From NCBI GenBank assembly GCA_964527235.1, contig CAZGNC010000001.1:83220-147219 (forward strand): DNA of 64,000 nt. Direction: 5' to 3'. The notes beneath the pieces were generated by a model. That model was not told where the DNA came from and ran no database searches. It saw only the letters and a list, made by a program, of their open reading frames with translations. Shown here one piece after another: positions 6,582-64,000 of the stretch. A program made the position numbers and the translations under genes. This DNA is from an uncultured Candidatus Saccharibacteria bacterium (GTDB taxonomy: Bacteria > Patescibacteriota > Minisyncoccia > Phycocordibacterales > UBA9973). Each line of letters starts with the position of its first letter. Within the stretch, counting starts at the first letter, position 1.

Positions 6582-6595
6582 AAAAGAAAACAAAG

Positions 6596-10985: not shown

Positions 10986-11058
10986 TCCGGGGTAGCTCAG
11001 CGGTAGAGCGGTCGCCTGTTAAGCGATTGGTCGTAGGTTCGATCCCTACCCCCGGAGC
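10986..11058 (+). tRNA. tRNA-Asn (anticodon GUU)
   Basis: UCCGGGGUAGCUCAGCGGUAGAGCGGUCGCCUGUUAAGCGAUUGGUCGUAGGUUCGAUCCCUACCCCCGGAG. Anticodon loop CUGUUAA; acceptor, D, anticodon and T stems all pair. Confidence 0.85.
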
Positions 11059-47535: not shown

Positions 47536-47541
47536 TTTTTA

Positions 47542-48321
47542 ATGAGTCACAACAATACAATGAAAGGAGTTATCTTGGCGGGCGGCCGAGCGACAAGGTT
47601 GCACCCATTAACTTTGGTGACCAACAAGCATCTATTGCCGGTTTTTAATAAACCTGTAATTTATTATGTTATAGAGAAAATGGTTAGGTTAGGTATAGAT
47701 AAAATAATGATAGTCACTTCCCCAGAACATGTTGAAGACTTCATAAAGTTACTTGGCTCAGGCGAGGGTTTCAAGCCTAATGGTAGAGGAAGTCAAATAC
47801 AGATAGTCTATGGTATACAGAATGAACCCAATGGAATCGCGCAAGGTTTATGGATTGCTAAGGATTATGTCGGCCAGGATGCGTGTATGCTGTGTTTAGG
47901 GGATAATATTATCGAAGATGATTTAGAAAGCCAAGTTAGAGGTTTTACAGAAGGATCTGCGATATTTTTAAAGGAAGTAGAAGATCCTAGTGCTTTTGGT
48001 GTTGCTGAAATAGATACAAATGGTAATGTGTTGGGGATAGAAGAGAAACCTAAAATTCCAAAATCTAATTTTATTGTTACAGGTGTGTATTTATATGACA
48101 ACACTGTCTTCGATAAATTTGAAGGTATACAGAAATCAGATAGGGGTGAATATGAGATAAACTACATAAACAATCAATATATCAAAGAGGGGAAGATGAA
48201 GGCGCATTTTTTACATAAAGCTTGGTTCGATACTGGAACTTTTGAAGGATTGGCAGAAGCGAATAAATATATGGAAGAAAAAGCTAAAACTATTGATAGT
48301 ACTAAATCACATGACATATAA
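47542..48321 (+). CDS. rmlA: Glucose-1-phosphate thymidylyltransferase-like sugar nucleotidyltransferase
   Basis: MKGVILAGGRATRLHPLTLVTNKHLLPVFNKPVIYY. Confidence 0.85.
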   Translation: MSHNNTMKGVILAGGRATRLHPLTLVTNKHLLPVFNKPVIYYVIEKMVRLGIDKIMIVTSPEHVEDFIKLLGSGEGFKPNGRGSQIQIVYGIQNEPNGIAQGLWIAKDYVGQDACMLCLGDNIIEDDLESQVRGFTEGSAIFLKEVEDPSAFGVAEIDTNGNVLGIEEKPKIPKSNFIVTGVYLYDNTVFDKFEGIQKSDRGEYEINYINNQYIKEGKMKAHFLHKAWFDTGTFEGLAEANKYMEEKAKTIDSTKSHDI

Positions 48322-49270
48322 AAAAACTATATTGATAACAGGGGGAGCTGGGTTCATTGGTAGTAATTTTTTAAATATCTGGGTAAAAAAATACCCTGAT
48401 TATTTTTTTGTAAATATTGATTCTCTAACGTATGCCTCTGATATGTCTAACGTCTTGGTTGAGAAGATGGAAAATTATAATTTCCAGAAGATGGATATTA
48501 GAGATTTTAATTCTCTAGATCTTTTATTCAAAGAGTTTAATTTTACAGATATAATAAATTTTGCCGCGGAGAGTCATGTGGATGTTAGTATTGATAATCC
48601 TAAGATATTTTTAGAGACTAATATTGTTGGGACATACAATCTGCTTGAACTAGCTCGAAAGTACAATATAAAAAGGTTTTACCAGATATCTACTGATGAG
48701 GTTTACGGTTCTCTTGCGATAGATGATAAGCCCTTCACTACAGATTCCATTTTGAATCCTAGTAGCCCATATAGCGCAAGTAAGGCAAGTGCTGACATGT
48801 TGGTCTCTGCCTATCATAAAACCTATGGCCTGGATACTGTTATTTCTAGAAGCACTAATAACTACGGCCCCAATCAAGATAATTCTAAATTCATACCTAA
48901 ATTTATTGAGAATTTAATAAAAGGGGAGAAAGTTCCTTTGTATTCAAATGGTCAGCATGTACGTGATTGGATATATGTGTTAGATCATGTGGAAGCTATT
49001 GATGTTGTATTTCATCGTGGTATTTCGGGCGGTGTGTATAACATAGGTTCTAATCAAGAATTTACGAATAGGGAAGTCGTCAATAAACTTCTAGAGTTGT
49101 CTGGGCGAGATGAGTCGTACATAGATAATGTGCCTGACCGCTTGGGGCATGATTTTCGTTATGCATTAGACACCAAAGAAATGTTTGAAGAATTTGGTTG
49201 GCAAGCGCGTACTAGTTTTATTGAAGGCATACAAAAGACATTTGATTTCTATAAGGAGAAGCGTGTTTAA
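48311..49270 (+). CDS. rmlB: dTDP-glucose 4,6-dehydratase
   Basis: ILITGGAGFIGSNF Rossmann motif; catalytic YSASKASADMLV (YxxxK); YQISTDEVYGS. Confidence 0.9.
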   Translation: MTYKKTILITGGAGFIGSNFLNIWVKKYPDYFFVNIDSLTYASDMSNVLVEKMENYNFQKMDIRDFNSLDLLFKEFNFTDIINFAAESHVDVSIDNPKIFLETNIVGTYNLLELARKYNIKRFYQISTDEVYGSLAIDDKPFTTDSILNPSSPYSASKASADMLVSAYHKTYGLDTVISRSTNNYGPNQDNSKFIPKFIENLIKGEKVPLYSNGQHVRDWIYVLDHVEAIDVVFHRGISGGVYNIGSNQEFTNREVVNKLLELSGRDESYIDNVPDRLGHDFRYALDTKEMFEEFGWQARTSFIEGIQKTFDFYKEKRV

Positions 49271-49273
49271 ACT

Positions 49274-49663
49274 ATGAAGACGCAACTTTATCAAACAATT
49301 CGGTATGTCTTAGCTGGAGCGACAGGGGCTGGGATAAATTTCTTGATTTACTTTATACTTCTTAGGTTTTTAAATGTATGGTATGTTCTGGCGTCCATTG
49401 TTTCATTTACCCTCTCTCTTTTTGCAGGTTTTTATTTACAAAAACATTTCACTTTTCGTAATTTCTCTAGTCATAATATTAAAAATCAAATGGCGCAATA
49501 TTATGCTTTTTCTGTTTTAAATTTAGTTATCAATGTTGCAATCTTAGCTTTCTTGGTGGAGATAATAATGATGGGTAAAGTTATATCTAAGGTTATTACC
49601 CTAATTATAATCTCTCTCTGGAGTTATTTTATTTATCAAAAGATTATATTTAAAAACCCTTAG
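49274..49663 (+). CDS. GtrA-family membrane protein (polysaccharide biosynthesis or flippase-associated)
   Basis: 4 TM segments. YVLAGATGAGINFLIYFILL...FYLQKHFTFRN is typical of GtrA. Confidence 0.65.
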   Translation: MKTQLYQTIRYVLAGATGAGINFLIYFILLRFLNVWYVLASIVSFTLSLFAGFYLQKHFTFRNFSSHNIKNQMAQYYAFSVLNLVINVAILAFLVEIIMMGKVISKVITLIIISLWSYFIYQKIIFKNP

Positions 49664-50613
49664 ATTGTATTATTACGAGCCATTTGTGTCAGCTCTTGAA
49701 CTCGCAGTCCATCTTCGAAAGAAGGGGTCATTTGTTGGCCGTTCTGACATGCCTTTATAAATCTTTTTGCCAAAATTCTAATTATTTTTACTCGCTGGTC
49801 TTCGTTTCCTACCTGTTTGTCTCTTTTTGTCTTTAGTATTTTGATTTTTTTACCATTTAATTGTGTTGATATTTGGAAATTATCCACTACGCTATTTTGA
49901 GTTGATAATATTATAGTGCCTTTCTCGCACTCAAATACTAGTTTATGTTCTATTAAGTTTGGGTGTACACATGATACGTGCACATCTCCAATAACCCCGT
50001 TTTTGAATTGGATAGATAGATCCACAGTTGTTTCTGCATACCTTGGTCTATCTTTAGGATAAGTAAGTTTAGCCTTTATGGTTTTTATTGGACCTGCAAA
50101 ATGTTCTAGGTAGTAAAGTCCATGAGAGAAATAAAAAGACAACACCCCGCCTCCTTCTTGTGTGTTATTTTTCCAGGAGTATTGGCTGTTTTTTATACTA
50201 TTAGCTAGCCATGCCCAATTCACTGAGATTTTCTTTAATTTGCCAAATTTTTTTGTGTCTAAGAGTTCTTTAACTTTTCTCCATTCTGCAATTTCAGGAA
50301 ATTCAAAATCTACACAAGTTATAATTTTATGTTTTCTAGCAAGTTTGGCTAGTGATTTACCTTGAGCTAGGTTTGCTGATAAGGGTTTTTCTGCGAATAC
50401 GTGTAGGCCCTGACTCAGAGCTTTTTGGGCGATATTGTATTGTTGACTCGGAGGTACCGCTATTGCTACTGCATCTAGGGATTTATTTTTTAATACATCT
50501 ACCCATTCGTGTCCAGGGAAAACTCCAACTACTTCACAATCTTTCAGCGAGCTGAATGCTGGCAGTAGTCCTATTTTACCAAAATTTGAACCGATGATAG
50601 CTAGGCGTATCAT
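49660..50613 (-). CDS. Gfo/Idh/MocA-family NAD(P)-dependent sugar oxidoreductase
   Basis: MIRLAIIGSNFGKIGLLPAF Rossmann N-terminus; EKPLS motif. Confidence 0.75.
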   Translation of the reverse strand: MIRLAIIGSNFGKIGLLPAFSSLKDCEVVGVFPGHEWVDVLKNKSLDAVAIAVPPSQQYNIAQKALSQGLHVFAEKPLSANLAQGKSLAKLARKHKIITCVDFEFPEIAEWRKVKELLDTKKFGKLKKISVNWAWLANSIKNSQYSWKNNTQEGGGVLSFYFSHGLYYLEHFAGPIKTIKAKLTYPKDRPRYAETTVDLSIQFKNGVIGDVHVSCVHPNLIEHKLVFECEKGTIILSTQNSVVDNFQISTQLNGKKIKILKTKRDKQVGNEDQRVKIIRILAKRFIKACQNGQQMTPSFEDGLRVQELTQMARNNTI

Positions 50614-51893
50614 TTTATGCTTGAATTTTTTATTATTCTAAAATTAGGCAATGGTATAACGAAATCTGATTTTAACCCAGCTCTTTTCAGTCTTGTGGTT
50701 ATGACTTCTTGGTAGTGCCAAGAAAGTATCACCACAAAGTCGGGTTGGTCCTTGAAAAGTATTTTTTCCTTCACTATAGGTATGTGTTTGCCAGGAAGAT
50801 ACATGCCTAGTTTTAGTGAATTATGTAGTTCAGCTAGGTAGGGCATTAATTCCTTATCTACACCGTAGTAATTTAATAATGTAGATGCGCGTCCCGGACA
50901 TGATTTCCCAACTACAGTTTTACCAGACTTTTTTGCGTTTATTATGAAACTCATGAAATCTAGACGAGCTTTTTTTACTTTTTGTGCAAATTCTCGATAA
51001 GTTTCAATTCGTTCTAGGCCAGCATCCTTTTCTAGTTTTAGTAGATTCTTTACATTTTCACTAACTGGTCTGTTCTTACCTTTCATTACATGGATTCTAA
51101 TATTACCACCATACCTACTTCCTCGTTCTACATCCGTTACGGTGAAGTCATATTGGTCAAAAAGCACAACAAGAGATTTCAGTGAATAAGTTCTTAGATG
51201 TTCGTGGTATATAGTATCAAACTGAACTTCCTTTATTACATCCATAAGATAGTGTGTTTCAGAAATGAATACTCCGTCATCTTCTAGTAAGTTATAAACA
51301 CCCATGATTACTTCACCCAATGTCTGTATGTGGGCGAAGACGTTTGTGGTAGTTATAATCTTCGCCCTACCATATTTTTCTAATATTTCTTTTGATGTGT
51401 CTATGTCAAAAAATTTCTGCAACGTTTTTATCCCATGCTTGTTAGCATATTTAGCCATGTTTGTAGGTTCTATTCCTAGTGTTTTTATCCCTTTTGATTT
51501 AAAGCCACTAAGTAACGTGCCGTCGTTGGATCCTATATCTATAACTAGGTCGTTTTTATTCAGAGAGTATCTTTCTGTTAAAGAATTTGCAATATCTTTC
51601 TGGTACACAACTAGTGGCTTGGATATGCCAGTACGGTAGGGGTATTCTGGATAATAAACTTCTCCTCCATCAACACAGTAGTCAATTTGGATCAAGGTAC
51701 ATTTTTCACACCACATCATGTGTAGTGGGTAAGTTTTCTCAGGGGTGTTTAAAGTCTTGTTTGTTAACAGGCTGTCGCAAGGTGGCTGGTGGCCCAAATC
51801 TAGTATGAGTCGGAGTTTATCATTGGCACATACTTGGCACTTATTTATCGGGCCTGTCTTTATTGAGTGGTGTCGAGGATATTTCAGCTTCAT
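50610..51893 (-). CDS. NDP-hexose C-methyltransferase-like class I SAM methyltransferase (TylCIII-type)
   Basis: N-terminal Cys-rich C-x-x-C...C (CQVCAND...PPCDS). SAM motif VIDIGSNDGTLLSGF. C-terminal C-methyltransferase-like domain. Confidence 0.65.
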   Translation of the reverse strand: MKLKYPRHHSIKTGPINKCQVCANDKLRLILDLGHQPPCDSLLTNKTLNTPEKTYPLHMMWCEKCTLIQIDYCVDGGEVYYPEYPYRTGISKPLVVYQKDIANSLTERYSLNKNDLVIDIGSNDGTLLSGFKSKGIKTLGIEPTNMAKYANKHGIKTLQKFFDIDTSKEILEKYGRAKIITTTNVFAHIQTLGEVIMGVYNLLEDDGVFISETHYLMDVIKEVQFDTIYHEHLRTYSLKSLVVLFDQYDFTVTDVERGSRYGGNIRIHVMKGKNRPVSENVKNLLKLEKDAGLERIETYREFAQKVKKARLDFMSFIINAKKSGKTVVGKSCPGRASTLLNYYGVDKELMPYLAELHNSLKLGMYLPGKHIPIVKEKILFKDQPDFVVILSWHYQEVITTRLKRAGLKSDFVIPLPNFRIIKNSSIK

Positions 51894-52890: not shown

Positions 52891-53967
52891 ATGCGATTTT
52901 TAGATCTTAAAAAATATTTTCCAGAAACCATACTCATCGTATTTTTTCTATTGTTCGGTGTTGCTTACTTTGCAAGTGCAGAGACTCTGACTAGTACGAA
53001 TTTTATTATCAAAGATCCAGTGATAGGCACAGGAGGGGGCTACGGATCTTCTGCTAGTTTTCAATTGCTTTCTGAGGGTGATAAAGTTTTGACCGGAGCA
53101 GGCTCATCTACTTCTTTTATTGGGCATTATGGATTTTTATATTATCCATTCATTACTGAAGCTGTGCTTACCGCCGTTGCCAATGGTTCTGATGGCGACC
53201 TGACTTGGACTGCCTCTGATGCTGGACAAGGCTGGACTGTATCAGGCTACAACGTGGGTAAGGCGACAGCACCTGGCGGTCCTTATACTTACATTGATGT
53301 CGGCAATGTGTTGCTTTATAGTTATGACAATCTTGCACCCGGGGATTACTGCTTTGTGGTGCAGACTTATGATGTGTTTGATTATGTGATTGCTACATCT
53401 AATGAAGACTGTATAACGATATTACCCACCATTGTTTTCGACTTAGACACTGAGGCTGGCGGTGGCACAGGAGAATCTTCTACTCCATATAGTGTAGGTT
53501 TGGGAGTTATCTCGACCTCAGACACCCGTGTCTCTGGAACTACCGATGGCATACAGATGATTGTCGCTGAAGGAGAGACAAATGCTACGAGTGGCGTGGT
53601 AGTCACTGTGCGTAATACGAATGGTGCAAATGGTCTGGCTTCCACCTCAGTGCCTGCTGATGATATCGATAGTGCTGATGGCACCATGGCTGATGGCACA
53701 GAGAACTATGGTTTATGTGTGGCGACTGCAGGACTTACTGGGTTTGCTCGATCTTCACCTTACAATTCTGGTACTTGTGCGACCGATTCCGAAACCAATG
53801 ACATTCAGGGTTTGACTTCAGTGGGGGAGAATATATTAAATTCTGCGACGGTACCGATGGTGGGAGGTCATGCTGAGATTATAGTCAATGGCGCCATTAG
53901 CAACATCACTCCTGCTCATTCGGATTACACCGACACCTTAACTTTCATTGCGACCAGCACATTTTAG
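52891..53967 (+). CDS. Secreted cell-surface protein, paralog A (divergent N-terminal half, conserved C-terminal ~190 aa)
   Basis: Signal peptide ...AYFASAET. The C-terminal region is ~80% identical at protein level to paralog B (SSTPYSVGLGVISTSDTRVSGTTD...HSDYTDTLTFIATSTF). Confidence 0.6.
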   Translation: MRFLDLKKYFPETILIVFFLLFGVAYFASAETLTSTNFIIKDPVIGTGGGYGSSASFQLLSEGDKVLTGAGSSTSFIGHYGFLYYPFITEAVLTAVANGSDGDLTWTASDAGQGWTVSGYNVGKATAPGGPYTYIDVGNVLLYSYDNLAPGDYCFVVQTYDVFDYVIATSNEDCITILPTIVFDLDTEAGGGTGESSTPYSVGLGVISTSDTRVSGTTDGIQMIVAEGETNATSGVVVTVRNTNGANGLASTSVPADDIDSADGTMADGTENYGLCVATAGLTGFARSSPYNSGTCATDSETNDIQGLTSVGENILNSATVPMVGGHAEIIVNGAISNITPAHSDYTDTLTFIATSTF

Positions 53968-54067
53968 TAGTTATCCACAGAGGCATTTTATACTGTGAAA
54001 GTATTATATAGTATAATTAAGGCATAATTTATTAACAAAATTTTAATTTATTAATTAATATAAAAAT

Positions 54068-55225
54068 ATGATAAAGAAATTAGGTAGTTTGTCTTTCGCC
54101 AAGTTCGTTAGCGGTTTCACTATATTGGCTATACTCACAGTTATGGCTGCTCCACAGCCAGCACAAGCTGCGTCAGTCACTAGTGCCAAGGCTACATTTG
54201 GTAGACTGAAGGCAAGTACTGCCAATGAATACGGCACCATTGAATTCGCTACTCCCACAGGCATACAGACTGGAGGTGCTGATACCATAAGCTTTACTTT
54301 CAGTGCTGACTTTACTCTAGCTGCTGAGTCCGCAAACAACTTCGACATAGAGCTTGGAGACAGTGCTACTTGTTCTTCTGCTGTTTATACCGATGAAGTT
54401 GTTGCGTTGACTGCTTCGGCTACAGATTGGGGAGTGGATGTGACTGGCAATGTGATAACTCTTTCTCCTGAAACTGACCAGACTCTTACAGCAGGATTCT
54501 GTATGAGACTTGTTTGGGGTACAGCTGCTACAACTGGAGCTACTGGTTCTGCGAGTACTATAACTAACGGAGCTGCAGACGATGATGACACGATAGTTAT
54601 CGGTGGAGTTTTTGGTGATTCAGGAACTATTACAGTAGACATAATCGACGATGATCAAGTTACAGTTACTGCAACAGTAAACCAGAGTATTACTTTCGAC
54701 CTAGACACCTCTGTGGCTGATGGCGAAACATCTACTCCTTACTCTGTTGCTTTGGGCACAATAACAGTAACCGATACAAGAGTTTCTGGAAGCACTGATT
54801 CTGTTAATATGATTATTGCTGAGTTAGACACAAACGCTTCTGGCGGTGCTGTGGTGACTGTAAGAAATGCTAATGGTGCCAACGGCCTAGCTTCTACTTC
54901 AGTGCCAGCAGACAACATAGGTAGTGCAGATGGTACCATAGCAGATGGCACTGAGAACTATGGTCTGTGTGTTATGTCAGTAACGCAAACTGCTGGTACT
55001 CTAGCAAAAGCGTCTCCATATAACGCTGGAACATGTGCAACTAACTCTGAGACCAACGACATACAAGGCTTAACTACTACTGGAGAAAATATTTTAAACT
55101 CTTCTTCTGCTCCTATCGCAGGAGGACATGCTGAGATCGCAGTTAACGCTGCTATCTCTGGGGTTACAGTAGCGCATTCTGATTACACTGACACTCTGAC
55201 TTTCGTTGCGACCGGAACTTTCTAG
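54068..55225 (+). CDS. Secreted cell-surface protein, paralog B
   Basis: Signal peptide ...AAPQPAQAAS. C-terminal TSTPYSVALGTITVTDTRVSGSTD...HSDYTDTLTFVATGTF. The DNA is only ~70% identical to paralog A, so the duplication is old. Confidence 0.6.
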   Translation: MIKKLGSLSFAKFVSGFTILAILTVMAAPQPAQAASVTSAKATFGRLKASTANEYGTIEFATPTGIQTGGADTISFTFSADFTLAAESANNFDIELGDSATCSSAVYTDEVVALTASATDWGVDVTGNVITLSPETDQTLTAGFCMRLVWGTAATTGATGSASTITNGAADDDDTIVIGGVFGDSGTITVDIIDDDQVTVTATVNQSITFDLDTSVADGETSTPYSVALGTITVTDTRVSGSTDSVNMIIAELDTNASGGAVVTVRNANGANGLASTSVPADNIGSADGTIADGTENYGLCVMSVTQTAGTLAKASPYNAGTCATNSETNDIQGLTTTGENILNSSSAPIAGGHAEIAVNAAISGVTVAHSDYTDTLTFVATGTF

Positions 55226-55249
55226 TACCAATAACTTAATTTTTGGATA

Positions 55250-56281
55250 ATGAAAAACCACTCAAATTGCAGAGTATTGCTAACACTTTTCACGATAATA
55301 ACACTCGGCATTTGTTTGTATCCGGGAAACGCTGATGCGATAACCATAACTCCAACTCGCTTTGAGGTGAGTGGCAACCCAGGAGAAACTCTAAGCTATG
55401 AGATACTACTTATAAACGAAACTGAATCCTCAGAAACTTTTTACCCTTCGTTTTCAAACTTTGAAGCTCAAGGGGACACTGGTAGCCCTGCTTTCACTGA
55501 GCCTACTGATGATCTAGGAACTTGGATGTCGGCCGACATGTCGTCGGTGTATCTTGCACCAAGACAGCAGAAGATAGTTCCATTTAAAATTCAAATACCT
55601 AAAGATGCAGAACCAGGAGGGCATTTTGCTGTGATATTCTGGGGTACTTCTCCTCCCAATGGAGCTCCTGGTGTCGCAGTTGGTGCCAAGACTGGAGTTC
55701 TTGTCCTTCTTTCTGTGAATGGAGATGTTCGAGAGGAGGCGGGGTTGTTGGATTTCAATACTAAAGATAAAAAGTTTTTCTATAAGACCTTACCAGTTTC
55801 CTTTGAATATAGATTGAGAAATGACGGAGGAGACAGAATAAAACCAAATGGTGTTATAAAAGTAAGAAACACTTTCTTCTTGCCATCTGAGAAATTAGAT
55901 GCAAACCCTGTACAGGGAAACGTCTTACCAAGCAGTACACGAAAGTTCAAGATTGATTGGGTTGAATATGAAAGAGCTCTAGATTATGTGCCACCTACTG
56001 GAGTATTCAAGAAATTCTGGAGTGAGACAGTCTATCAATGGAGAAACTTCGCAGTTGGCTTGTATTCAGCAAATCTAAACATAGAATACGGTACGCAAGG
56101 CGCTAAAGCTAAAAGCACATCTTTCTTCTTTGTCTTTCCTTGGCAACTTGTATCAGTGTTGTTACTAATATTTATTATAGTCTTCTGGGGTGGTAAGAAA
56201 ATTATCAGACGCTACAATAGATTTATAATCGAGAAGGCAAGGGCTGGTATGCATTTACCGTCCGATTCTTCTCATGTCTAA
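55250..56281 (+). CDS. Cell-surface protein with signal peptide and C-terminal TM anchor plus basic tail (DUF916-like architecture)
   Basis: SP ...CLYPGNADA. C-terminal VLLLIFIIVFWGGKKIIRRYNRF. Confidence 0.4.
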   Translation: MKNHSNCRVLLTLFTIITLGICLYPGNADAITITPTRFEVSGNPGETLSYEILLINETESSETFYPSFSNFEAQGDTGSPAFTEPTDDLGTWMSADMSSVYLAPRQQKIVPFKIQIPKDAEPGGHFAVIFWGTSPPNGAPGVAVGAKTGVLVLLSVNGDVREEAGLLDFNTKDKKFFYKTLPVSFEYRLRNDGGDRIKPNGVIKVRNTFFLPSEKLDANPVQGNVLPSSTRKFKIDWVEYERALDYVPPTGVFKKFWSETVYQWRNFAVGLYSANLNIEYGTQGAKAKSTSFFFVFPWQLVSVLLLIFIIVFWGGKKIIRRYNRFIIEKARAGMHLPSDSSHV

Positions 56282-57167
56282 TTCTTTTAAATTTTATCTT
56301 GTTTTTTCTTTAGCTCTATTTGTTTCTTGTTTTTGCGTTAGAGTTGTTTTGGCACAAACTGGACCAGTTACTGAGAATGTGAATGTAACTGCCAGGGTTG
56401 GCGAGGAAGTAGTAGTCACTCCTGGAGGCCCTAGCGGGGGTAGTGTGGCTTCGCCAGCTACTGCGGTGAGATTTTCTGGACAGGCTTACCCTAACGCAAG
56501 TGTTAAGCTTTTAAAGTGGGGTCAAGAACAGGTGGAAGTGTTTGCAGATCAAAACGGAAATTTCTCTATTACGTTGCCAGAATATTATGATGCTAGTGTG
56601 CTTTACTCGCTTACCGCTGAGGATATATTCGGGAACAGGTCTCTAATAATCAACTATCCTCTGGTTGTTAAGGTTGGCTTTGTTACGCATCTAAGTGGTG
56701 TGCGATTTGCTCCAACAATAGTGACAGATAAAACTGAAGTTAAATCCGGAGACTATTTAACGGTTAGCGGCTATGCATTACCAAGTCAGAATATGGAAAT
56801 ATTAGTAGATGGGGCAGCGAAGCGTAATTTTTCCTTAGTTTCAAATTCTGATGGAACTTACAAGATAGTCTTACCACTCTCTCTCTTGCCGAAAGGTGAA
56901 TACACAGTTTCTATACACTATATAAACGATGATCGATTTAGTAAATTAGTAAAATTTATAATAGGTGAGTTGAATATTCTTAATGCTGACATATTACTAA
57001 ACATTCCGGGGGATTGTAATACTGATAAAATAATAAACTTAGTTGATTTCTCAGTGCTAGCATTCTGGTATGGTAAACCCAATCCGCCTGTGTGTGTTGA
57101 TACGAATGCAGACAAGAAAATCGACTTGATAGACTTCTCAATATTAGCTTTTTATTGGACTGGATAA
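56274..57167 (+). CDS. Secreted protein with C-terminal dockerin-like domain
   Basis: Signal peptide. Two tandem Ca-binding dockerin segments GDCNTDKIINLVDFSVLAFWY and DTNADKKIDLIDFSILAFYW, with D/N at positions 1, 3, 5, 9 and 12 plus the following aromatic/Leu pattern. Confidence 0.7.
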   Translation: MSNSFKFYLVFSLALFVSCFCVRVVLAQTGPVTENVNVTARVGEEVVVTPGGPSGGSVASPATAVRFSGQAYPNASVKLLKWGQEQVEVFADQNGNFSITLPEYYDASVLYSLTAEDIFGNRSLIINYPLVVKVGFVTHLSGVRFAPTIVTDKTEVKSGDYLTVSGYALPSQNMEILVDGAAKRNFSLVSNSDGTYKIVLPLSLLPKGEYTVSIHYINDDRFSKLVKFIIGELNILNADILLNIPGDCNTDKIINLVDFSVLAFWYGKPNPPVCVDTNADKKIDLIDFSILAFYWTG

Positions 57168-57168
57168 T

Positions 57169-58053
57169 ATGAATAAATATTTACGATACTTTTTTATAGG
57201 AATTATTTTTTTTCTCAGTCCTCTAGCCACCATACTAGCAGCGGAGGTTTCTTTCGATGCACCGAAGCAAGTATACTTAGGTGAAGTTTTTAATGTTCCG
57301 GTAAATGTGGACAGTGGTGGGGTAATGATTAATTCTGTTGATTTGTCTATAGATTTCAATGAAGATATGATTGTTTTTTCAGGCTATAAGAGTGATGACG
57401 GAATTGTGAAGCTATGGGTTAAATCCCCAACTGACGAGAATGGTGTGCTCAAAATGAGTGGGATTATTCCTGGTGGAGTGTCAGGCCTGTATGATCCTAA
57501 AGAGAGTGGATTAAGAGCCGTGCCAGTGGTAAGTTTAATTTTCACTGCAAATAAGACTGGCAATGCCGAATTTTATTTTACAGATTCTAAAGTTTTCAAA
57601 CATGATGGTAAGGGTACTGAGATTGAACATCAACGATCTAGCGCTTCAGTCACGATTGTAGATGATCCAGATTCTGATCCTAGTATCGTTAAAGATATAA
57701 ATATTACTGATACTGATAAACCAGAGCCCTTCGAGATGGTTTTCCTAAATTCAGCATTCTTTGGTCGCACACCTTCTATGATTATTTTTGAAACTACTGA
57801 CAAAACTTCTGGGGTTAAGGAGTTTCGCATGAAGGCTGTAGGTGATACATGGTTTACGGTAAAAAGTCCGTATCCTGTGTCTAAAGGTCTTTTCCCTAGG
57901 AGTGTGGTTGTTAGGGCTTATGATTTTTATGATAATTTTCAAGAAAGTTCTGTGAGAGTGCCAGGCATCATGGGTTCGAAGTTCTTCTGGGGCTTTGTTG
58001 TCTGGTTGTTGTTTTGTTTGGGAGTATATAAAGTGTTAAAATATAAATCATGA
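57169..58053 (+). CDS. Cohesin-like domain protein with C-terminal TM anchor
   Basis: SP, then AEVSFDAPKQVYLGEVFNVPVNVDSGGVMINSVDLSIDFNEDMIVFSGY...GVLKMSGII, the cohesin beta-sandwich pattern. C-terminal TM FFWGFVVWLLFCLGVY. Confidence 0.6.
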   Translation: MNKYLRYFFIGIIFFLSPLATILAAEVSFDAPKQVYLGEVFNVPVNVDSGGVMINSVDLSIDFNEDMIVFSGYKSDDGIVKLWVKSPTDENGVLKMSGIIPGGVSGLYDPKESGLRAVPVVSLIFTANKTGNAEFYFTDSKVFKHDGKGTEIEHQRSSASVTIVDDPDSDPSIVKDINITDTDKPEPFEMVFLNSAFFGRTPSMIIFETTDKTSGVKEFRMKAVGDTWFTVKSPYPVSKGLFPRSVVVRAYDFYDNFQESSVRVPGIMGSKFFWGFVVWLLFCLGVYKVLKYKS

Positions 58054-59168
58054 GAGCTATTTTAAATTCCAAGGTCTTCAGTATATTGCTGTTTGGCTTC
58101 CTAATAGCTAATGTGGCTCACGCACAAACTCCTAGCGTATTTTTCAGCACACCGCCTAAGCAGATTCACGAGGGTGAGAGGCTGACTGTTGATGTAAAAA
58201 TTCAATCACCAGGTAAGTCCGTAAACGCTATTTCTGGAGTTATTTCGTATCCAGAAAGTTTGGTGAATGTCGCTTCAATTTCAAAAGACAAGAGCATCAT
58301 CAATATTTGGACCCGTGAACCGAAAGCCAGTAAGGGCCGAATTGTGTTTGAGGGTGTTGCGCTCAATCCAGGATTCGAAGGTTACAATGGTTTGGTTTTT
58401 AGGATTACCTTTGAAGCAAAACGCACAGGCACTGTGTTCCTCAAGATTACCGAAGGGGCGGTGTTGGCGAACGATGGTCGGGGTACGAATGTTCTAGCTA
58501 GTTTGGGTTCTACTAACTTCAATATTATCCAAGGTCTTACTCCTGCACCAACTATTGCCGAAGTAATAACCCCAGAAGGTGGCACCAAGCTAACCGCCTT
58601 GCCTGTCATCATTGAATATTCACCTTTAGTTAATACTAAAGAAGGACTCTTTGTAAAAGGTAAAGGCGAGCCGAATGCTCTAACCAAGATTGTTTTCAAA
58701 GATGTCTCAGTCAAGTCTATAGGCGAGCAATTAATTGCAATGCTTCAGACTAAGAAGAAAAAGCTTAATGAAGTTTTGGTTCAAAACGATGAGATTGGCG
58801 GATTCAATTATATTAGCCCTAAGAACTTAGTTGCAGGGGTGTATAATGCAACGCCGTTCTTGGTTGAAGAGAGTACCAACACAGAGAAGCCTGGTTTTGG
58901 TGTTCAGCTTCTGGTTGACGATAGTAAGATAGTGAAGTGGCTTGTGGTGTTGATAAATGTATTAGGATTGTTGATTCCGGTTGTCGCATTGATCGTTGTT
59001 ATATACTTTATTCCTTGGTATTCCTTTAGACGAATGCGGGTGATTAAGAAGAAGCTTGGGTTAGAAGAGGAACAGCTAGACCTCACCGAGCATCAGCTAG
59101 AACGGCAAGACAAAAGTCAGGATAAGCCTCTTATTCCACCTTTCATACCACCCACAGGTACGCAATAA
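58050..59168 (+). CDS. Cohesin-like domain protein with C-terminal TM anchor and coiled-coil or Pro-rich tail
   Basis: SP, then PPKQIHEGERLTVDVKIQSPGKSVNAISGVISYPESLVNVASI...GLVFRITFEAKRTGTVFLKITEGAVL. C-terminal TM WLVVLINVLGLLIPVVALIVVIYFIPWY. Confidence 0.6.
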   Translation: MRAILNSKVFSILLFGFLIANVAHAQTPSVFFSTPPKQIHEGERLTVDVKIQSPGKSVNAISGVISYPESLVNVASISKDKSIINIWTREPKASKGRIVFEGVALNPGFEGYNGLVFRITFEAKRTGTVFLKITEGAVLANDGRGTNVLASLGSTNFNIIQGLTPAPTIAEVITPEGGTKLTALPVIIEYSPLVNTKEGLFVKGKGEPNALTKIVFKDVSVKSIGEQLIAMLQTKKKKLNEVLVQNDEIGGFNYISPKNLVAGVYNATPFLVEESTNTEKPGFGVQLLVDDSKIVKWLVVLINVLGLLIPVVALIVVIYFIPWYSFRRMRVIKKKLGLEEEQLDLTEHQLERQDKSQDKPLIPPFIPPTGTQ

Positions 59169-60405: not shown

Positions 60406-61212
60406 ATGGTGAGTCAAAAAAAATCTTCAAATTTTAATTCAAAAAACACTTCTAAAAAAAGTAATGTTTTGCGCGTTCAAGTAGATGGAATTTACAAGAA
60501 AAGAAAATTTACTGAAGTAAAAGACGAAAAAGTTGTATGCAATTTAAGTAGTATAGATAGTGATAAAGTTGAAGAAATTAATTCAGTAGATGATAACAGG
60601 CGTCTATTTCTGAAAGCTGCTGGTGTTGCTGGTTTGGGCTTGGCGGCAGGGGCTTTATTTCCAAAAGGTGCTGAGGCGTACGTTGCTGGTAGTACGCCGA
60701 CTTCAAATGTCGTGGGGTCTAAGGACGCTTCAAACGTCCGAATAAATCCAGCCAAAGAAGATGGCAACTTAGCAACTATTGCTGGGAAAGACTTTGCCAC
60801 ACAGACAACCCTGGCGGCGATGAAAGCCAAGACGGATTTACTGACTTTCGATGGTAGTAATAATCTTCTAACTGCGTCTAGTGGTGGAGCTTCATCTGTT
60901 AAAATAAAAGATACTTCGAATACCGAAGTAAACCCTGCCACAGAAGATAGCATGATGTTGCTTAGAAGAATTCTAAGACAAATGGACTCATTGGCTGTCG
61001 TAGATTCTGCGCAAAGACAGAAAGTCACAGTTGAAGGTGCAACTATTACAAGTGGAACCATTACGACAGTAACCACAGTAACCACAGTTTCTACTCTAAC
61101 TTCAGCAACTAACTTAGTTGCACTCGGAGGTGTGGATGGTAGGTATTTATATATTGATACTGCACGAAATGCTTCAGCGAATGGTATTAGAGGTAACTTA
61201 TTATTTTCATAA
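60406..61212 (+). CDS. Hypothetical Thr-rich protein with an internal twin-arginine-like motif (NRRLFLKAAGVAGLGLAAGALF)
   Basis: RRLFLK plus a hydrophobic stretch at aa ~64-90. Ends at a TAA that is in frame with, and 3 nt before, the next large ORF. Confidence 0.45.
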   Translation: MVSQKKSSNFNSKNTSKKSNVLRVQVDGIYKKRKFTEVKDEKVVCNLSSIDSDKVEEINSVDDNRRLFLKAAGVAGLGLAAGALFPKGAEAYVAGSTPTSNVVGSKDASNVRINPAKEDGNLATIAGKDFATQTTLAAMKAKTDLLTFDGSNNLLTASSGGASSVKIKDTSNTEVNPATEDSMMLLRRILRQMDSLAVVDSAQRQKVTVEGATITSGTITTVTTVTTVSTLTSATNLVALGGVDGRYLYIDTARNASANGIRGNLLFS

Positions 61213-61215
61213 TAT

Positions 61216-64000
61216 ATGGCTGTTACAAATAATCTTAAAGCTCAAGTAGATTTACCCGTATGGGAATGGTGTAGATTTGCCCCTACTGCTTCTGTTGCTC
61301 TTTCAGGTATGGCCACCGCTGATGATGGGACAGCTAGGTTTATATATTACATGACAACAGCGACTTTCTATCGCTATGATACTTATGCTGATACATGGCA
61401 ACAGCTCGCTACTCCTAACACTACTCCTGTTACTATTCTTTCTTTACGATATACAGGATTTCGTGGTTATCACGGTAGAGTGTTGAGTGCGACAAGTACC
61501 ACAGTGCAAATTCCTGGCCTTAGGGGGCCAACGCTAAATGGTAAGACTTTAAAAATATTAAGTGGCACGGGTATGGGTCAGGAGAGAGTGTTGACTTACA
61601 CGGGGGAAACTATTCATGATGCTGGGGTTATCACAGGTACCACGACAGCTACATTGGTGGACTCCACAAAGAAGTGGAGGTTCAATCAATGGTCGGGTTA
61701 CCTTGTTGGTATAACTTTCGGTACAGATGCGACTCAGTACAAGAAGATTCTATACAATGATGCTACCACTCTTTATATCCAGGATTCAAACTTACAACCA
61801 CAGGATCCATGGAATAACCAGATTTTCGTTGCAGCAGCACCTTATGCATTACCTGTTACTACTGCAGGTTCTCAGGCACATTTTCAGATTTTATCTAGTA
61901 CATTCTCAGTAGCTTCATGGGATGTTACTCCGGATTATACTTCTTACTTTACTACCACAACTGGTGGAATTTATTTACTTTCCTCAGCCGCTGCTGCGCC
62001 ATTCTTTACTTTACAGTATTACGATATTATCCATGATTCATGGCAAACTAAAACTTGTAACCAGGGTTTAATTCAGGCTGCATTTGGTACTGATTGTACT
62101 TTTGAAAGATTGGCAAAGACAGGTACAGCTTTTCTTTCATCAACTGCTACGGCTGGGTCAGCACGTACTGTCACTGATTCTGTGCAGACTTTAACAGTAG
62201 ATAGATATGCCAATTATAGAATTTTAATCACTGGCGGTACTGGTATTGGTCAAAGCCGAAGAATCATTTGCAACACTACCACCGTGTTTACAGTCAATAA
62301 GGCCTGGGATGTTACACCTGACAATACTTCTACTTATGAAATATGGGGAGATTACGACAAAGCATTTATGGCAGGAGGTGCAGCAGGTGCTTTGTATGCT
62401 TATTCTCCGAGTAATGATTTTTGGATGCAGGGACAGAGCTTCGATGATGGAATTGTAGCTAACATCGCAGTAAAGATGAATGGCTGGGAAGCCCTAGGTG
62501 TAACTTCTGGAGTAAGAATTGCTTCGGGAGTTACAGCAGTGAATCCTGTTCCGACCGCGGGTGGGACAGGATATGTGGTTGGAGATATTTTAACTTGCTC
62601 TGTTGGTGGTACAGGTGCTCGTGTGATAGTTACTTCTACTACATTTTCTGGTTCCTCTGGTGTTGTCACCGGTATTGAACTTGTTGCCTCTGGTACTGTA
62701 ACTGGTTTTACTACAGGCACTGGTAAGGCTACTACCGGTGGTACTGGTACAGGATGCACAATAGAAATAACTTCAGTGGGGGCTACTTGTTTAGTAACCA
62801 CTGCTTCAGCAAACTGGTTTAAGACAGGGGATTCTGTAACTTTCTCTGGTTGCACCGAAGCTGCATATAATGCTGCCCATACTATCTTAGGAGTTGGAAG
62901 TACTACAACTTTTGATGTTGCTGTTTCTGCTACAGCTAACATGGCAGCAAGTAATTCTCAGTCGACAACTGTTATAGTTGACCCTACAAAGAGCTGGACG
63001 ACTAATGAGCACGTAGGTAAGTTGGTGCACCTTTCTGTGGCTGGTACTGCACCTACTGCGCAGATAAGATGGATTACCGCGAATACTGCAACAACTTTAA
63101 CTGTTGCAACTATAGTTGCGGGTGTTAATGGTACTTCAAAGTATGCAATTTACGATTCTAAAGTCTTCGGAACTGATAATCAATTCAAACCAGCTAATCA
63201 GCAAAATTGGGGTCATGCTTCTAGTGGATCTACCACTACTTTAGTAGATTCTTCAAAAAGTTGGGTTACCAACTGTTGGGCGGGTTATAAACTTCGCATA
63301 GAGTCTGGCACTGGCTTCGCTTCGGGAATTATTTCTATTGTTTCAAATACTGCTACGACTTTAACCTATGCGTCACAATCTTTTACCCCTGATGCTACTA
63401 CTCACTATGAAATTGCTGATAGTTGGGGTTTGATAACTGCCGGTGGTACTACTACACCTGTTACCGAAACGACTACGAAAAACTGGACTACTAACATGTG
63501 GGCAGGAAAAAGATTGCGAATCACAGGAGGCACAGCTTTAGGGCAGGAGGGAACTATAACCTCAAACACTGCTACAGCTCTCACCACTGCAGCGCTTACT
63601 TTGACTGATACGACTTCTACATATGCAATTCTTGGCATCCCAGCTCGTGGTGCAGGTATTCAGTTGATTTGGCTATGGAATAATTCAGATTCCACCACTA
63701 AGGGTAAATATATGTTCTTGCCGAGAGGTGGAGCGTCTAACACTGCTGATATATATGACATCACGACCTCTCGTTGGATATATGGGTACTTTTATTCACC
63801 GCAGGCAGAAACTCTTACCACTGGGTCAATGTATGCATATGATGGTCATAACACTATTTACTTCCAAAAAGATGCAACAGGAAGAGTGTATGCATATAAT
63901 TTTACCACCAATGATATTAAATTATTAGGTACTATACCTTACGGACACTCCACGGCTATAGTTGGTAATAGAATGGAGATAATAGAAACAGCAGATGGTT
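61216..64000 (+). CDS. Partial (>928 aa, open at the window end) giant repeat protein with ~50-aa [ST]K-x-W-x-x-N-x-W-x-G...GTG-x-GQ...NT-x-T-x-LT repeats and a C-terminal Kelch/beta-propeller-like region
   Basis: Frame 1 from the ATG at 61216 stays open to position 64000. It is absent from the track because no stop lies in the window. Repeats include STTVIVDPTKSWTTNEHVGKLVHL..., STTTLVDSSKSWVTNCWAGYKLRIESGTGFASG...NTATTLTY and TKNWTTNMWAGKRLRITGGTALGQEGTITSNTATALT. Confidence 0.6.
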   Translation, partial: MAVTNNLKAQVDLPVWEWCRFAPTASVALSGMATADDGTARFIYYMTTATFYRYDTYADTWQQLATPNTTPVTILSLRYTGFRGYHGRVLSATSTTVQIPGLRGPTLNGKTLKILSGTGMGQERVLTYTGETIHDAGVITGTTTATLVDSTKKWRFNQWSGYLVGITFGTDATQYKKILYNDATTLYIQDSNLQPQDPWNNQIFVAAAPYALPVTTAGSQAHFQILSSTFSVASWDVTPDYTSYFTTTTGGIYLLSSAAAAPFFTLQYYDIIHDSWQTKTCNQGLIQAAFGTDCTFERLAKTGTAFLSSTATAGSARTVTDSVQTLTVDRYANYRILITGGTGIGQSRRIICNTTTVFTVNKAWDVTPDNTSTYEIWGDYDKAFMAGGAAGALYAYSPSNDFWMQGQSFDDGIVANIAVKMNGWEALGVTSGVRIASGVTAVNPVPTAGGTGYVVGDILTCSVGGTGARVIVTSTTFSGSSGVVTGIELVASGTVTGFTTGTGKATTGGTGTGCTIEITSVGATCLVTTASANWFKTGDSVTFSGCTEAAYNAAHTILGVGSTTTFDVAVSATANMAASNSQSTTVIVDPTKSWTTNEHVGKLVHLSVAGTAPTAQIRWITANTATTLTVATIVAGVNGTSKYAIYDSKVFGTDNQFKPANQQNWGHASSGSTTTLVDSSKSWVTNCWAGYKLRIESGTGFASGIISIVSNTATTLTYASQSFTPDATTHYEIADSWGLITAGGTTTPVTETTTKNWTTNMWAGKRLRITGGTALGQEGTITSNTATALTTAALTLTDTTSTYAILGIPARGAGIQLIWLWNNSDSTTKGKYMFLPRGGASNTADIYDITTSRWIYGYFYSPQAETLTTGSMYAYDGHNTIYFQKDATGRVYAYNFTTNDIKLLGTIPYGHSTAIVGNRMEIIETADG

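What the first reader, a model, noticed from the sequence alone, without database searches (positions are those of the whole stretch)
61216..64000. Open-ended giant ORF with an unfamiliar ~50-aa tandem repeat, separated by a single in-frame TAA from the upstream gene
Frame 1 is open from 61216 to the window edge (>928 aa), so the ORF track missed it. It contains at least five copies of a repeat with invariant Trp/Asn/Gly positions and ends in Kelch- or propeller-like Tyr/Gly-rich segments. I do not recognise the repeat as a known family. The preceding 268-aa ORF (60406-61212) is in the same frame and ends at a TAA 3 nt before this ATG. This could be a nonsense-interrupted single giant gene, a programmed arrangement, or two genes.
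Basis: seen in the sequence. Interest (0 to 1): 0.6.

Follow-up and report, generated by a model that had tools for sequence, protein, structure and literature searches.

The report
Phage-type propeller protein beside a Tat-signal partner
The "giant interrupted gene" is really two ordinary-sized genes: a small exported protein and a 949-residue propeller protein whose relatives are phage particle proteins, and in this group of tiny bacteria (CPR, the Candidate Phyla Radiation) the pair sits next to its own export machinery.

Summary
The raw observation holds. Frame 1 is open from 61216 to the window edge. The 268-aa ORF upstream (60406-61212) ends in TAA 3 nt before the ATG, in the same frame.

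The "giant" and "interrupted gene" readings fail:
- Orthologues are 937-972 aa, so only about 21 residues are missing.
- No fused version exists among more than 500 homologues.
- The stop is always present at 97 distinct junctions.

I call the upstream ORF A and the large ORF B.
- **B:** the AlphaFold2 model (pLDDT 91, pTM 0.90) is a six-bladed Kelch-like propeller. It carries six copies of a 61-64-aa beta domain with no Pfam, NCBIfam or PHROGs match, plus other inserts.
- **A:** it carries a twin-arginine (Tat) signal that scores above the TIGR01409 cut-off.

The A/B pair is widespread in tailed-phage genomes. In those, the small partner has no Tat signal. Both homologues were detected by mass spectrometry in Pseudanabaena phage Pam2 virions.

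In 17 CPR contigs the pair lies in a conserved cluster: A, B, a GH73-like cell-wall hydrolase, tatC and tatA. A second, unrelated phage-type pair uses the same Tat module.

Best reading (inferred, not shown): a phage-derived complex is exported in folded form through Tat, with B riding on A.

The parts
60406..61212 (+). Gene A: 268-aa Tat-signal protein, the small partner of the propeller protein. Its C-terminal half (about aa 165-268) is the part shared with the phage partner proteins.
   Evidence: 426 homologues of 193-358 aa, none fused. The conserved C-terminus is followed by a stop. A profile of the C-terminal half finds an ORF directly upstream of B in 88 of 93 loci. The AlphaFold2 model of A alone is poor (pLDDT 58, pTM 0.18, mostly isolated helices).
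60595..60678 (+). Twin-arginine signal peptide of A (aa 64-91): N-R-R-L-F-L-K, a hydrophobic stretch, then A-E-A before Y-V. It follows an unusually long 63-aa N-region.
   Evidence: TIGR01409 TAT_signal_seq scores 20.7 bits against a cut-off of 16.7, over residues 64-91. R66 and F68 are invariant in 82 homologues. Position 65 is R in 21 and K in 61. It is the only ORF in the window with such a motif followed by a hydrophobic stretch.
61210..61218 (+). Junction: TAA stop of A, a 3-nt spacer (TAT), then the ATG of B, all in the same frame.
   Evidence: Across the family the spacer is 0-50 nt and all three frame relations occur.
61216..64000 (+). Gene B: a propeller protein of about 949 aa with no signal peptide. 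It is cut by the window edge, about 21 codons short.
61216..61494 (+). N-terminal propeller strands of B (aa 1-93).
   Evidence: DSSP strands in the model. A sub-threshold Kelch_1 hit at aa 48-67.
61495..61599 (+). Repeat copy 1, first half (aa 94-128).
   Evidence: The seed profile matches aa 109-128 to profile positions 19-38. Profiles R3 and R6 match with independent E-values of 3.5e-4 and 1.6e-5.
61642..61827 (+). Repeat copy 2 (aa 143-204), nested inside copy 1.
   Evidence: The other copies' profiles find it at 2.6e-9 to 7.6e-8.
61888..61956 (+). Repeat copy 1, second half (aa 225-247).
   Evidence: The seed profile matches aa 228-244 to profile positions 42-58. Profile R3 matches at 4.6e-4.
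62158..62346 (+). Repeat copy 3 (aa 315-377).
62494..62940 (+). Central insert of B (aa 427-575). It comprises a long-stranded Gly/Thr-rich beta domain and a small beta domain.
   Evidence: DSSP strands 427-569 in the model. Family variants of 780-830 aa match in three stretches, so a middle part is absent or divergent; whether this insert is the part affected was not checked.
62962..63153 (+). Repeat copy 4 (aa 583-646).
63229..63417 (+). Repeat copy 5 (aa 672-734).
63451..63633 (+). Repeat copy 6 (aa 746-806).
63634..64000 (+). C-terminal propeller blades of B (aa 807-928), truncated by the window edge.
   Evidence: DSSP strands 832-906. Orthologues continue with ...LNYLYIMRHTGAEMWRTIIFF.

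Best explanation
These are two separate, tightly coupled genes of a CPR (Parcubacteria-type) bacterium.

**Gene A (60406-61212)** encodes a small protein with a twin-arginine (Tat) signal peptide.

**Gene B (61216 to beyond the edge, about 949 aa)** encodes a compact all-beta protein with no signal peptide. Its core is a six-bladed Kelch-like propeller. Six copies of an uncatalogued 61-64-aa beta domain, plus a central insert, are grafted into that core.

**The A/B pair is a module shared with tailed phages.** In phages the small partner has no Tat signal, the pair lies among tail and tail-fibre genes, and both proteins are virion components.

**In CPR genomes the pair has a different setting.** A carries a Tat signal plus an extra N-terminal repeat module. 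The pair is followed by a GH73-like peptidoglycan hydrolase, tatC and tatA.

**Proposed mechanism (inferred):**
1. A and B fold and associate in the cytoplasm, as phage particle proteins do.
2. The Tat translocase, which moves folded proteins, exports the complex using A's signal, with B as a "hitchhiker".
3. The hydrolase opens the wall locally.
4. The product is a surface or secreted phage-derived binding device.

**Status of each step.** Shown: gene structure, fold, Tat signal, phage homology and operon conservation. Inferred: the A-B complex, co-export of B, and a surface role.
For: **Separate genes of ordinary size**
- Orthologues are 937-972 aa.
- No fusions were found.
- A stop is always present.
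- The junction is reproduced in two independent assemblies.

**Fold**
- AlphaFold2 pLDDT 91, pTM 0.90.

**Repeats:** they are mutually detectable with independent profiles.

**Tat signal**
- TIGR01409 scores above its cut-off.
- The motif is conserved in 82 homologues.

**Operon**
- A-B-C-tatC-tatA is present in all 6 distinct genome loci long enough to show it and in 11 further metagenome contigs.
- B identity across these loci runs from 85% down to 31%.
- C matches the Pfam family Glucosaminidase in 6 of 6 members.

**Phage link**
- 135 contigs of the viral collection IMG/VR encode B relatives.
- Their neighbours include tail sheath, tail tube, portal and endolysin genes.
- Pam2 ORF65 and ORF66 are the A and B homologues. 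Both are marked as identified by mass spectrometry (PMC9382816, Table S2).
- The RR/KR-x-F-L-K motif is found in 11 of 11 CPR loci and in none of the viral loci.

**Not a prophage here:** the neighbours in the window are envelope-sugar and surface-protein genes, and dnaE lies in the same window.

**Support for the adaptor idea**
- A second cluster (L142) joins the same Tat N-terminal module to a different partner domain and a different 709-aa signal-less protein.
- That protein's relatives also occur in viral contigs, preceded by a partner that lacks the Tat part.

**Other**
- B is more conserved than tatC between the same loci (79% against 47%).
- A alone does not fold in prediction, which fits folding on a partner.
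Against: - The window ends inside B, so the hydrolase and tat genes are not seen in this genome. Their presence is inferred from synteny.
- No direct evidence exists that A binds B or that B leaves the cell.
- Most A homologues have K-R rather than R-R (61 of 82), and the region before the motif is unusually long (median 58 aa). Both are atypical for Tat signals.
- If the complex is oligomeric, as many phage fibres are, it may be too large for Tat.
- In C, an Asp sits where GH73 enzymes have the catalytic Glu. This rests on my reading of the motif, so its activity is uncertain.
- The neighbour-joining tree that nests the CPR clade within viral sequences is crude, so the direction of transfer is not settled.
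Confidence: 0.5

Rival explanations
1. One giant gene interrupted by a nonsense codon, or a programmed stop-codon read-through that makes an A-B fusion protein.
For: - A and B are in frame in the window.
- In-frame junctions are over-represented family-wide: 57 of 92 distinct junctions.
- After clustering at 60% identity, 18.9 of 31 clusters are in frame (p about 0.001).
Against: - No fused protein exists among 120+120+150 listed homologues or at 97 junctions.
- 35 of 92 junctions are out of frame.
- 52 of 57 in-frame junctions use TAA. In the window it is followed by T, which from general knowledge is the strongest bacterial termination context.
- 24 of 57 have a second in-frame stop in the spacer.
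- A's C-terminus is conserved right up to the stop.
Confidence: 0.03
2. The pair belongs to an integrated prophage or phage remnant and encodes virion parts. The Tat signal and the neighbouring tat genes are incidental.
For: - Homologues are virion proteins in Pam2.
- The family is abundant in phage contigs.
- A lysozyme-like gene follows the pair in related loci.
Against: - No phage hallmark gene lies in the 20 kb upstream in the window or in the flanks of L001 and L002.
- The five-gene order is kept in 17 CPR contigs whose flanks differ (shown for the window, L001 and L002) and whose GC content ranges from 0.32 to 0.57 in the six genome loci.
- The Tat motif is present in all CPR copies and in no phage copy.
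Confidence: 0.1
3. Only A is exported by Tat. B works in the cytoplasm or is released some other way, and the gene linkage reflects only a shared regulatory or assembly role.
For: B has no signal. Nothing directly shows co-export.
Against: - The pair is adjacent in 88 of 93 loci, and both proteins are in the same virion.
- A is predicted to be unstructured on its own.
- A second, unrelated signal-less cargo sits in the same position behind the same Tat module.
- The tat genes are embedded in the operon.
Confidence: 0.25

Closest known systems
Pseudanabaena phage Pam2 ORF65/ORF66 (GenBank ON014754; ORF66 is annotated "FliK" by transfer from a Parcubacteria record)
   Same: - Same two-gene order.
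- ORF66 (875 aa) aligns with B from the N-terminal ...QVDxPxWEW to the C-terminal ...GNRMEI...LKYL.
- ORF65 (150 aa) matches the C-terminal half of A (E 1.4e-22).
-.
   Different: - The phage partner has no Tat signal and lacks the N-terminal NPAxEDGNLATI module.
- The context is a siphovirus tail region.
- Both proteins are in virions by mass spectrometry (PMC9382816).
- No function has been assigned to the phage proteins either.
Six-bladed Kelch propellers (KLHL12, KEAP1, KLHL17)
   Different: - Sequence identity is 14-17%.
- The Pfam Kelch motif is below threshold in this protein.
- About two thirds of B is inserted domains that these propellers lack.
- There is no BTB/BACK context.
Tat "hitchhiker" export of signal-less subunits (E. 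coli hydrogenase-2 HybO/HybC, DMSO reductase DmsA/DmsB; from general knowledge)
   Same: A subunit with a Tat signal is encoded next to a signal-less partner, alongside a translocase that accepts folded complexes.
   Different: - Those cargoes are cofactor-containing redox enzymes.
- Here the cargo is a cofactor-less phage-type structural protein.
- The signal is on a small, apparently unstructured adaptor.
- The tat genes are part of the same operon.
- Co-export is not shown here.
Dedicated wall hydrolases of envelope-spanning assemblies and of phages (FlgJ-type GH73 glucosaminidases, phage endolysins)
   Same: Gene C, which follows B in related loci, matches Pfam Glucosaminidase in 6 of 6 members.
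   Different: - C lies outside the window.
- Its score is below the Pfam cut-off in the member for which a score was shown.
- It has no signal peptide.
- It has a highly conserved helical N-terminus.
- By my reading of the motif, Asp replaces the catalytic Glu.
Domesticated phage structural modules (tailocins, phage-tail-like injection systems)
   Same: Phage particle proteins are kept in cellular genomes under strong conservation.
   Different: There is no sheath, tube or baseplate here. Only a two-protein peripheral module is kept, and export appears to go through Tat rather than by lysis.

Membership tests
Kelch-type six-bladed beta-propeller | Six four-stranded blades that superpose on solved Kelch domains | tested here: met
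Kelch-type six-bladed beta-propeller | Sequence match to the Pfam Kelch motif (PF01344) above its gathering score | tested here: not met
   14.7 bits against a cut-off of 20.1, E 0.022. A minority of orthologues carry a precomputed PF01344 hit.
Tat (twin-arginine) signal-peptide proteins (gene A) | (S/T)-R-R-x-F-L-K motif, then a hydrophobic stretch and an A-x-A site, recognised by TIGR01409 | tested here: met
   20.7 bits against a cut-off of 16.7, residues 64-91. The sequence reads NRRLFLK...AEA/YV. R66 and F68 are invariant in 82 homologues.
Tat (twin-arginine) signal-peptide proteins (gene A) | A Tat translocase (TatC plus TatA) encoded in the same genome | not testable with these tools
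   The window ends inside B. In 17 related contigs, tatC and tatA belong to the same cluster (NCBIfam hits).
Tat hitchhiker complexes | The partner subunit has no signal peptide of its own | tested here: met
   The B N-terminus MAVTNNLKAQVDLPVWEW has no hydrophobic stretch. It is shared with the phage versions.
Tat hitchhiker complexes | A stable complex of the two proteins that is exported together | not testable with these tools
   Only indirect support: the genes are adjacent in 88 of 93 loci, both proteins occur in Pam2 virions, and A does not fold alone.
Pam2 ORF65/ORF66-type phage virion pair | Full-length homology of the large protein, and a small partner gene directly upstream | tested here: met
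   tblastn E 6e-21. End-to-end similarity in the translation. The partner profile matches at E 1.4e-22.
Pam2 ORF65/ORF66-type phage virion pair | Located in a phage genome among structural genes | tested here: not met
   The window neighbours are cellular envelope and surface genes, and dnaE is in the same window. None has a PHROGs structural hit.
Nonsense-interrupted gene or programmed read-through | Uninterrupted (fused) orthologues exist | tested here: not met
   None were found among the homologues listed, or at 97 junctions.
Nonsense-interrupted gene or programmed read-through | The in-frame relation is conserved and the stop context is leaky | tested here: inconclusive
   In-frame junctions are enriched (57 of 92) but not universal. 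TAA is used in 52 of 57, and a second in-frame stop occurs in 24 of 57.
Giant repeat surface proteins (more than 2000 aa) | Length of several thousand residues with a long tandem array | tested here: not met
   Orthologues are 937-972 aa. There are six non-tandem copies.

The most novel reading that the evidence does not exclude
In CPR bacteria the Tat system, or one copy of it, is a dedicated exporter for domesticated phage particle proteins. A reusable adaptor consists of a Tat signal plus the GSTPTSNVVG...RINPATDD module. This adaptor has been grafted onto the small partners of at least two unrelated phage protein pairs. It carries their large, pre-folded, signal-less partners to the cell surface, possibly as host-attachment devices of these episymbionts. 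A weaker side possibility is that the family-wide in-frame bias reflects an ancient gene fission, or rare read-through fusions that tether B to A.
Probability: 0.35. Interest if true: 0.8.

Novelty: new variant of a known kind. Interest (0 to 1): 0.6.

Why it matters
CPR bacteria have tiny genomes and live attached to other cells. How they build their surface and hold on to hosts is largely unknown.

This locus offers a concrete, testable candidate. It is a strongly conserved phage-type propeller complex with its own Tat genes and wall hydrolase. It also suggests what the sporadically retained Tat system of CPR is for.

It gives a first context to a large, uncatalogued family of phage virion proteins that is present in sipho-, myo- and podovirus-like contigs with GC content of 0.29-0.64.

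It corrects misleading database names ("FliK", "Mucin-2 precursor") that have already spread into a phage annotation.

If the hitchhiker idea holds, it would extend Tat piggy-back export from redox enzymes to structural proteins of viral origin.

Tried and rejected
- **Self-BLAST of B** found no repeats. Profile methods were needed.
- **Library searches with B** (Pfam, NCBIfam, PHROGs and a profile against PDB sequences) gave nothing significant.
- **Foldseek against PDB** gave only local Kelch-blade matches and meaningless global alignments.
- **The species-genome scan** returned only 6 loci.
- **Recovering the 259,673-bp source contig to extend the ORF** failed. Only two short read-set contigs came back, and the cluster look-up gave no names.
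- **Profile of gene C against PDB sequences** gave nothing.
- **Structure prediction of A alone** was uninformative beyond showing that it lacks a fold of its own.
- **One literature search on "Pam2"** was swamped by lipopeptide papers. Searches for Tat in Parcubacteria, Patescibacteria or CPR found only general statements that tatA and tatC occur in some CPR classes.
- **Conserved antisense ORFs** (60492-61085 and 62400-62942, minus strand) are shadows of the conserved genes and were dismissed.
- **Coordinates of the model** were not available, so blade-by-blade mapping of the inserts is inferred from DSSP and motifs only.
Full report
**1. The observation**

Translation of 60406-64000 in frame 1 gives a 268-aa ORF, one TAA, one Tyr codon, and then 928 codons with no stop up to the window edge. 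In sequence of about 40% GC, such an open frame cannot arise by chance, and it has hundreds of close homologues. Two assemblies made from independent read sets (SRR14271372 and SRR14271365) have the identical junction. The TAA is therefore not an error peculiar to this record.

I call the upstream ORF A and the large ORF B.

**2. Not giant and not interrupted**

- The 120 best relatives of B are 58-88% identical, cover 98-100% of the query, and are 937-972 aa long.
- An alignment shows that the window lacks only the last 21 or so residues (...LNYLYIMRHTGAEMWRTIIFF).
- A search of 1.84 billion cluster representatives finds 205 clusters at E<1e-30. Full-length members are mostly 935-990 aa, with shorter (780-830 aa) and longer (1190-2534 aa) variants. 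None has an N-terminal extension the size of A.
- All 120 listed relatives of A are 193-358 aa.
- In 97 distinct A/B junctions from phage and CPR loci, a stop always separates the genes. The spacers are mostly 0-30 nt.

**3. What B is**

AlphaFold2, run with 86 orthologues, gives a confident, compact, all-beta model (mean pLDDT 91.1, pTM 0.90).

- Foldseek against PDB finds only local Kelch-blade matches and no global analogue.
- At sequence level there is no significant match to Pfam (Kelch_1 E 0.022, below its cut-off), NCBIfam, PHROGs or any PDB chain.

Its approximate consensus is sTTtLvDssKsWxxNxWaGxxlrIxsGTGxGQxrxIxSNTxTtLTvxxxxxxxPDxTSxYxI.

- It has 61-64 residues and about five strands.
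- Five full copies lie at aa 143-204, 315-377, 583-646, 672-734 and 746-806.
- A sixth copy is split (94-128 + 225-247) and has copy 2 nested inside it.
- Profiles built from one copy across 86 orthologues find the other full copies at independent E-values of 2e-4 to 6e-16. They find the two halves of the split copy at 1.6e-5 to 4.6e-4.

A central insert (aa 427-575) adds two more beta domains. The non-repeat segments at the N-terminus, between the repeats and at the C-terminus carry Kelch-like Y/G/W patterns. I infer that they form the six blades, with the repeat domains inserted into them. I could not verify this blade by blade without the model coordinates.

**4. What A is**

- Residues 64-91 (NRRLFLKAAGVAGLGLAAGALFPKGAEA) match the twin-arginine signal model TIGR01409 above its curated cut-off (20.7 against 16.7 bits).
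- In 82 homologues the second Arg and the Phe are invariant. The first position is Arg in 21 and Lys in 61. The h-region and an A-x-A site before YV-GSTPTSNVVG are conserved.
- The motif is preceded by an unusually long, variable N-region (median 58 aa).
- A is the only ORF in the 64-kb window with such a motif followed by a hydrophobic stretch.
- Mature A contains two copies of a (I/V)NPAxED motif, a helix LLRRILRQMDSLAVVDSAQRQ, a Thr/Val/Ser-rich stretch, and a conserved C-terminal ...ARNAxANGIRxNLxFS.
- Predicted alone, it has no stable fold (pLDDT 58, pTM 0.18).

**5. Genomic setting in relatives**

The contigs carrying close B orthologues are labelled Parcubacteria, Nomurabacteria, Doudnabacteria and "Saccharibacteria". 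All are CPR.

- Every distinct genome locus long enough to show it (6 of 6) has the same order on one strand. The order is A, B, a protein of about 288 aa (C), tatC, and one or two tatA genes (TatC and TatA are confirmed by NCBIfam).
- A metagenome scan seeded with A adds 11 more contigs with the same five genes. B identity there falls as low as 31%. In four of them tatA sits just upstream of A.
- C matches Pfam Glucosaminidase (GH73) in 6 of 6 members, with a best E-value of 9e-8. It scores below the cut-off in the one member for which a score was shown.
- C also has an invariant helical N-terminus and no signal peptide.
- Between the same pair of loci, B is far more conserved than the rest: 79% against TatC 47%, C 45% and A 55%.
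- Further downstream in these loci lie a dockerin-bearing surface protein and two cohesin-like membrane-anchored proteins. Their homologues in the window lie upstream, at 56274-59168.

The window itself is chromosomal:
- RNase P RNA and two tRNAs;
- dnaE;
- envelope-sugar genes at 46759-51893;
- Sec-signal surface proteins at 52891-59168;
- no PHROGs structural hits.

**6. The phage connection**

A scan of IMG/VR viral contigs found 135 loci that encode B relatives (39-63% identical, full length).

- Of the 80 loci kept, none has tatC, tatA or C.
- Their GC content ranges from 0.29 to 0.64.
- Sampled neighbours include tail sheath (E 9e-60), tail tube, long-tail-fibre-like proteins, portal, tail-fibre assembly protein and endolysin.
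- A profile of A's C-terminal half finds an ORF of 92-305 aa immediately upstream of B in 88 of 93 loci. Four of the five exceptions have no or almost no DNA upstream of B.
- The RR/KR-x-F-L-K motif occurs in 11 of 11 CPR loci and in none of the viral ones.
- In the BFVD library of predicted viral structures, an uncharacterised 968-aa protein of an uncultured Caudovirales phage matches the model end to end (TM 0.93/0.89, 36% identity).

Among 50,697 GenBank phage records, only Pseudanabaena phage Pam2 has the pair.

- ORF66 (875 aa) is a full-length B homologue, and ORF65 (150 aa) is an A C-terminal homologue. They lie among genes annotated as distal tail protein, minor tail subunit and tail fibre.
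- Table S2 of the Pam2 genome paper marks both ORF65 and ORF66 as identified by mass spectrometry. It lists "FliK, Parcubacteria bacterium C7867-004" as ORF66's best BLAST hit (PMC9382816). That name is an annotation artefact.
- A neighbour-joining tree places the tight CPR clade (the window, L001, L002, L004, L005 and L007) inside the viral diversity. The Doudnabacteria copy sits elsewhere. The tree is crude, so the direction of transfer is only suggested.

**7. A second cargo with the same adaptor**

Contig L142 has a 205-aa protein with the same signal and N-terminal module (KRAFLK..., AYVVGSTPTSNVVG..RINPATDD) but a different C-terminal domain. It is followed by an unrelated 709-aa signal-less protein with no Pfam match, a Pro/Glu-rich protein, tatC and tatA.

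The 709-aa protein has relatives that are 54-63% identical in 10 viral contigs. In three of them, a small upstream ORF matches only the non-Tat part of the 205-aa protein.

So the same Tat module has been joined to the small partners of two different phage-type pairs.

**8. Mechanism**

Shown:
- two genes;
- a Tat signal on A and none on B;
- a compact propeller fold for B;
- homology of the pair to phage virion proteins;
- an operon with a wall-hydrolase-like gene and tatC/tatA in related CPR genomes.

Inferred:
- A and B form a complex. The arguments are that the genes are almost always adjacent, both proteins are in one virion, and A does not fold alone.
- Because phage particle proteins fold in the cytoplasm, a cell that wants them outside needs the one general exporter that takes folded proteins. 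This would explain why tat genes are wired into the operon.
- B would leave the cell as a hitchhiker on A, as signal-less subunits of some redox enzymes do (general knowledge).
- C would open the wall locally.

The final role is open. It could be adhesion to a host cell, a secreted binding protein, or something else.

Points against or untested:
- K-R dominates over R-R in the family.
- The N-region is long.
- The size limit of Tat would be a problem if the complex is oligomeric.
- The tat genes are not visible in this window.
- There is no experimental evidence.

**9. An unexplained detail**

- 57 of 92 distinct adjacent junctions are in frame 0.
- By distinct spacer sequence the three frame relations count 41, 14 and 14.
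- After clustering B N-termini at 60% identity, 18.9 of 31 clusters are in frame (p about 0.001).

Read-through does not explain this. TAA is used in 52 of 57 in-frame junctions, 24 of 57 have a second in-frame stop, a third of junctions are out of frame, and no fusion product is known. The bias may be an ancestral character that changes slowly. For example, it could descend from an in-frame spacer or an ancient gene fission, with start and stop shifts by point mutation keeping multiples of three. I could not resolve it.

**10. Verdict**

As written, the finding is half right.

- The ORF and the repeat are real and uncatalogued.
- There is no giant gene and no interrupted gene.
- B belongs to a large, unnamed family of phage virion proteins with a Kelch-like core.
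- The distinctive feature is its CPR setting behind a Tat-signal partner and next to tat genes. I found no description of this in the searchable literature.

I rate it a new variant of known kinds (Tat piggy-back export and domesticated phage parts), with interest 0.6.

Noticed in passing
window 52891-59168 (+): A run of six genes with Sec-type signals. Two share a C-terminal domain (52891-53967 and 54068-55225). One is a DUF916/WxL-interacting-like protein with a C-terminal membrane anchor (55250-56281). One is an Ig-like protein ending in a dockerin-like repeat (56274-57167). Two are cohesin-like proteins with C-terminal anchors (57169-58053 and 58050-59168). Homologues of the last three lie downstream of tatA in the related Tat clusters. 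The surface-protein set and the A/B/Tat cluster therefore travel together, although their order differs.
   Followed up: partly
L142 7980-12327 (also L151): A variant Tat cluster. It has the same Tat signal and GSTPTSNVVG..RINPATDD module on a 205-aa protein with a different C-terminal domain. This is followed by an unrelated 709-aa signal-less protein, a Pro/Glu-rich protein, tatC and tatA. The 709-aa protein has relatives that are 54-63% identical in 10 IMG/VR contigs, and in three of them the upstream partner lacks the Tat part.
   Followed up: partly
junctions in L001-L155 and window 61210-61218: A and B are in the same reading frame in 57 of 92 distinct junctions (p about 0.001 after clustering), with spacer lengths of 0, 3, 6, ... 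30 nt. Yet the stops are mostly TAA and are often doubled. No explanation is established.
   Followed up: partly
L100, L122, L124, L125, L135: These are divergent clusters. B matches only over its first 350-790 residues, and the hydrolase-like gene lies 2-6 kb further downstream, so B may be longer there or extra genes may intervene. In all but L135, tatA sits just upstream of A instead of after tatC.
   Followed up: no
window 6001-10000: A stretch with GC 0.55 in a genome of about 0.40 GC. It has long overlapping ORFs on both strands. The two minus-strand ORFs (6673-8430 and 8330-9586) gave only weak hits: proline-rich, and OmpA-like at 25 bits. Rfam found no RNA gene there.
   Followed up: partly
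window 4161-4517 (-), 10797-10870 (-), 10986-11058 (+): A bacterial RNase P RNA of class A (112 bits), plus tRNA-Ala(TGC) and tRNA-Asn(GTT). These confirm a bacterial chromosome.
   Followed up: yes
window 37927-43740 (+) and 33119-36580 (+): Two large ORFs of 1937 and 1153 aa. They have no Pfam family apart from a weak SH3_3 hit in the second. Part of the first has raised GC (0.51 at 40001-42000).
   Followed up: no
database annotations of B homologues (P0011, P0017; Pam2_66): Names such as "Mucin-2 precursor" and "Flagellar hook-length control protein FliK" are attached to B orthologues. They have been carried over into the Pam2 phage record. Nothing in the sequence or fold supports either name.
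   Followed up: yes
L142 6178-7872 (-): A 564-aa dockerin-ended protein made of repeats such as IKAKTDTLAWxDVTG. These resemble the AAMKAKTDLLTF motif inside A.
   Followed up: no
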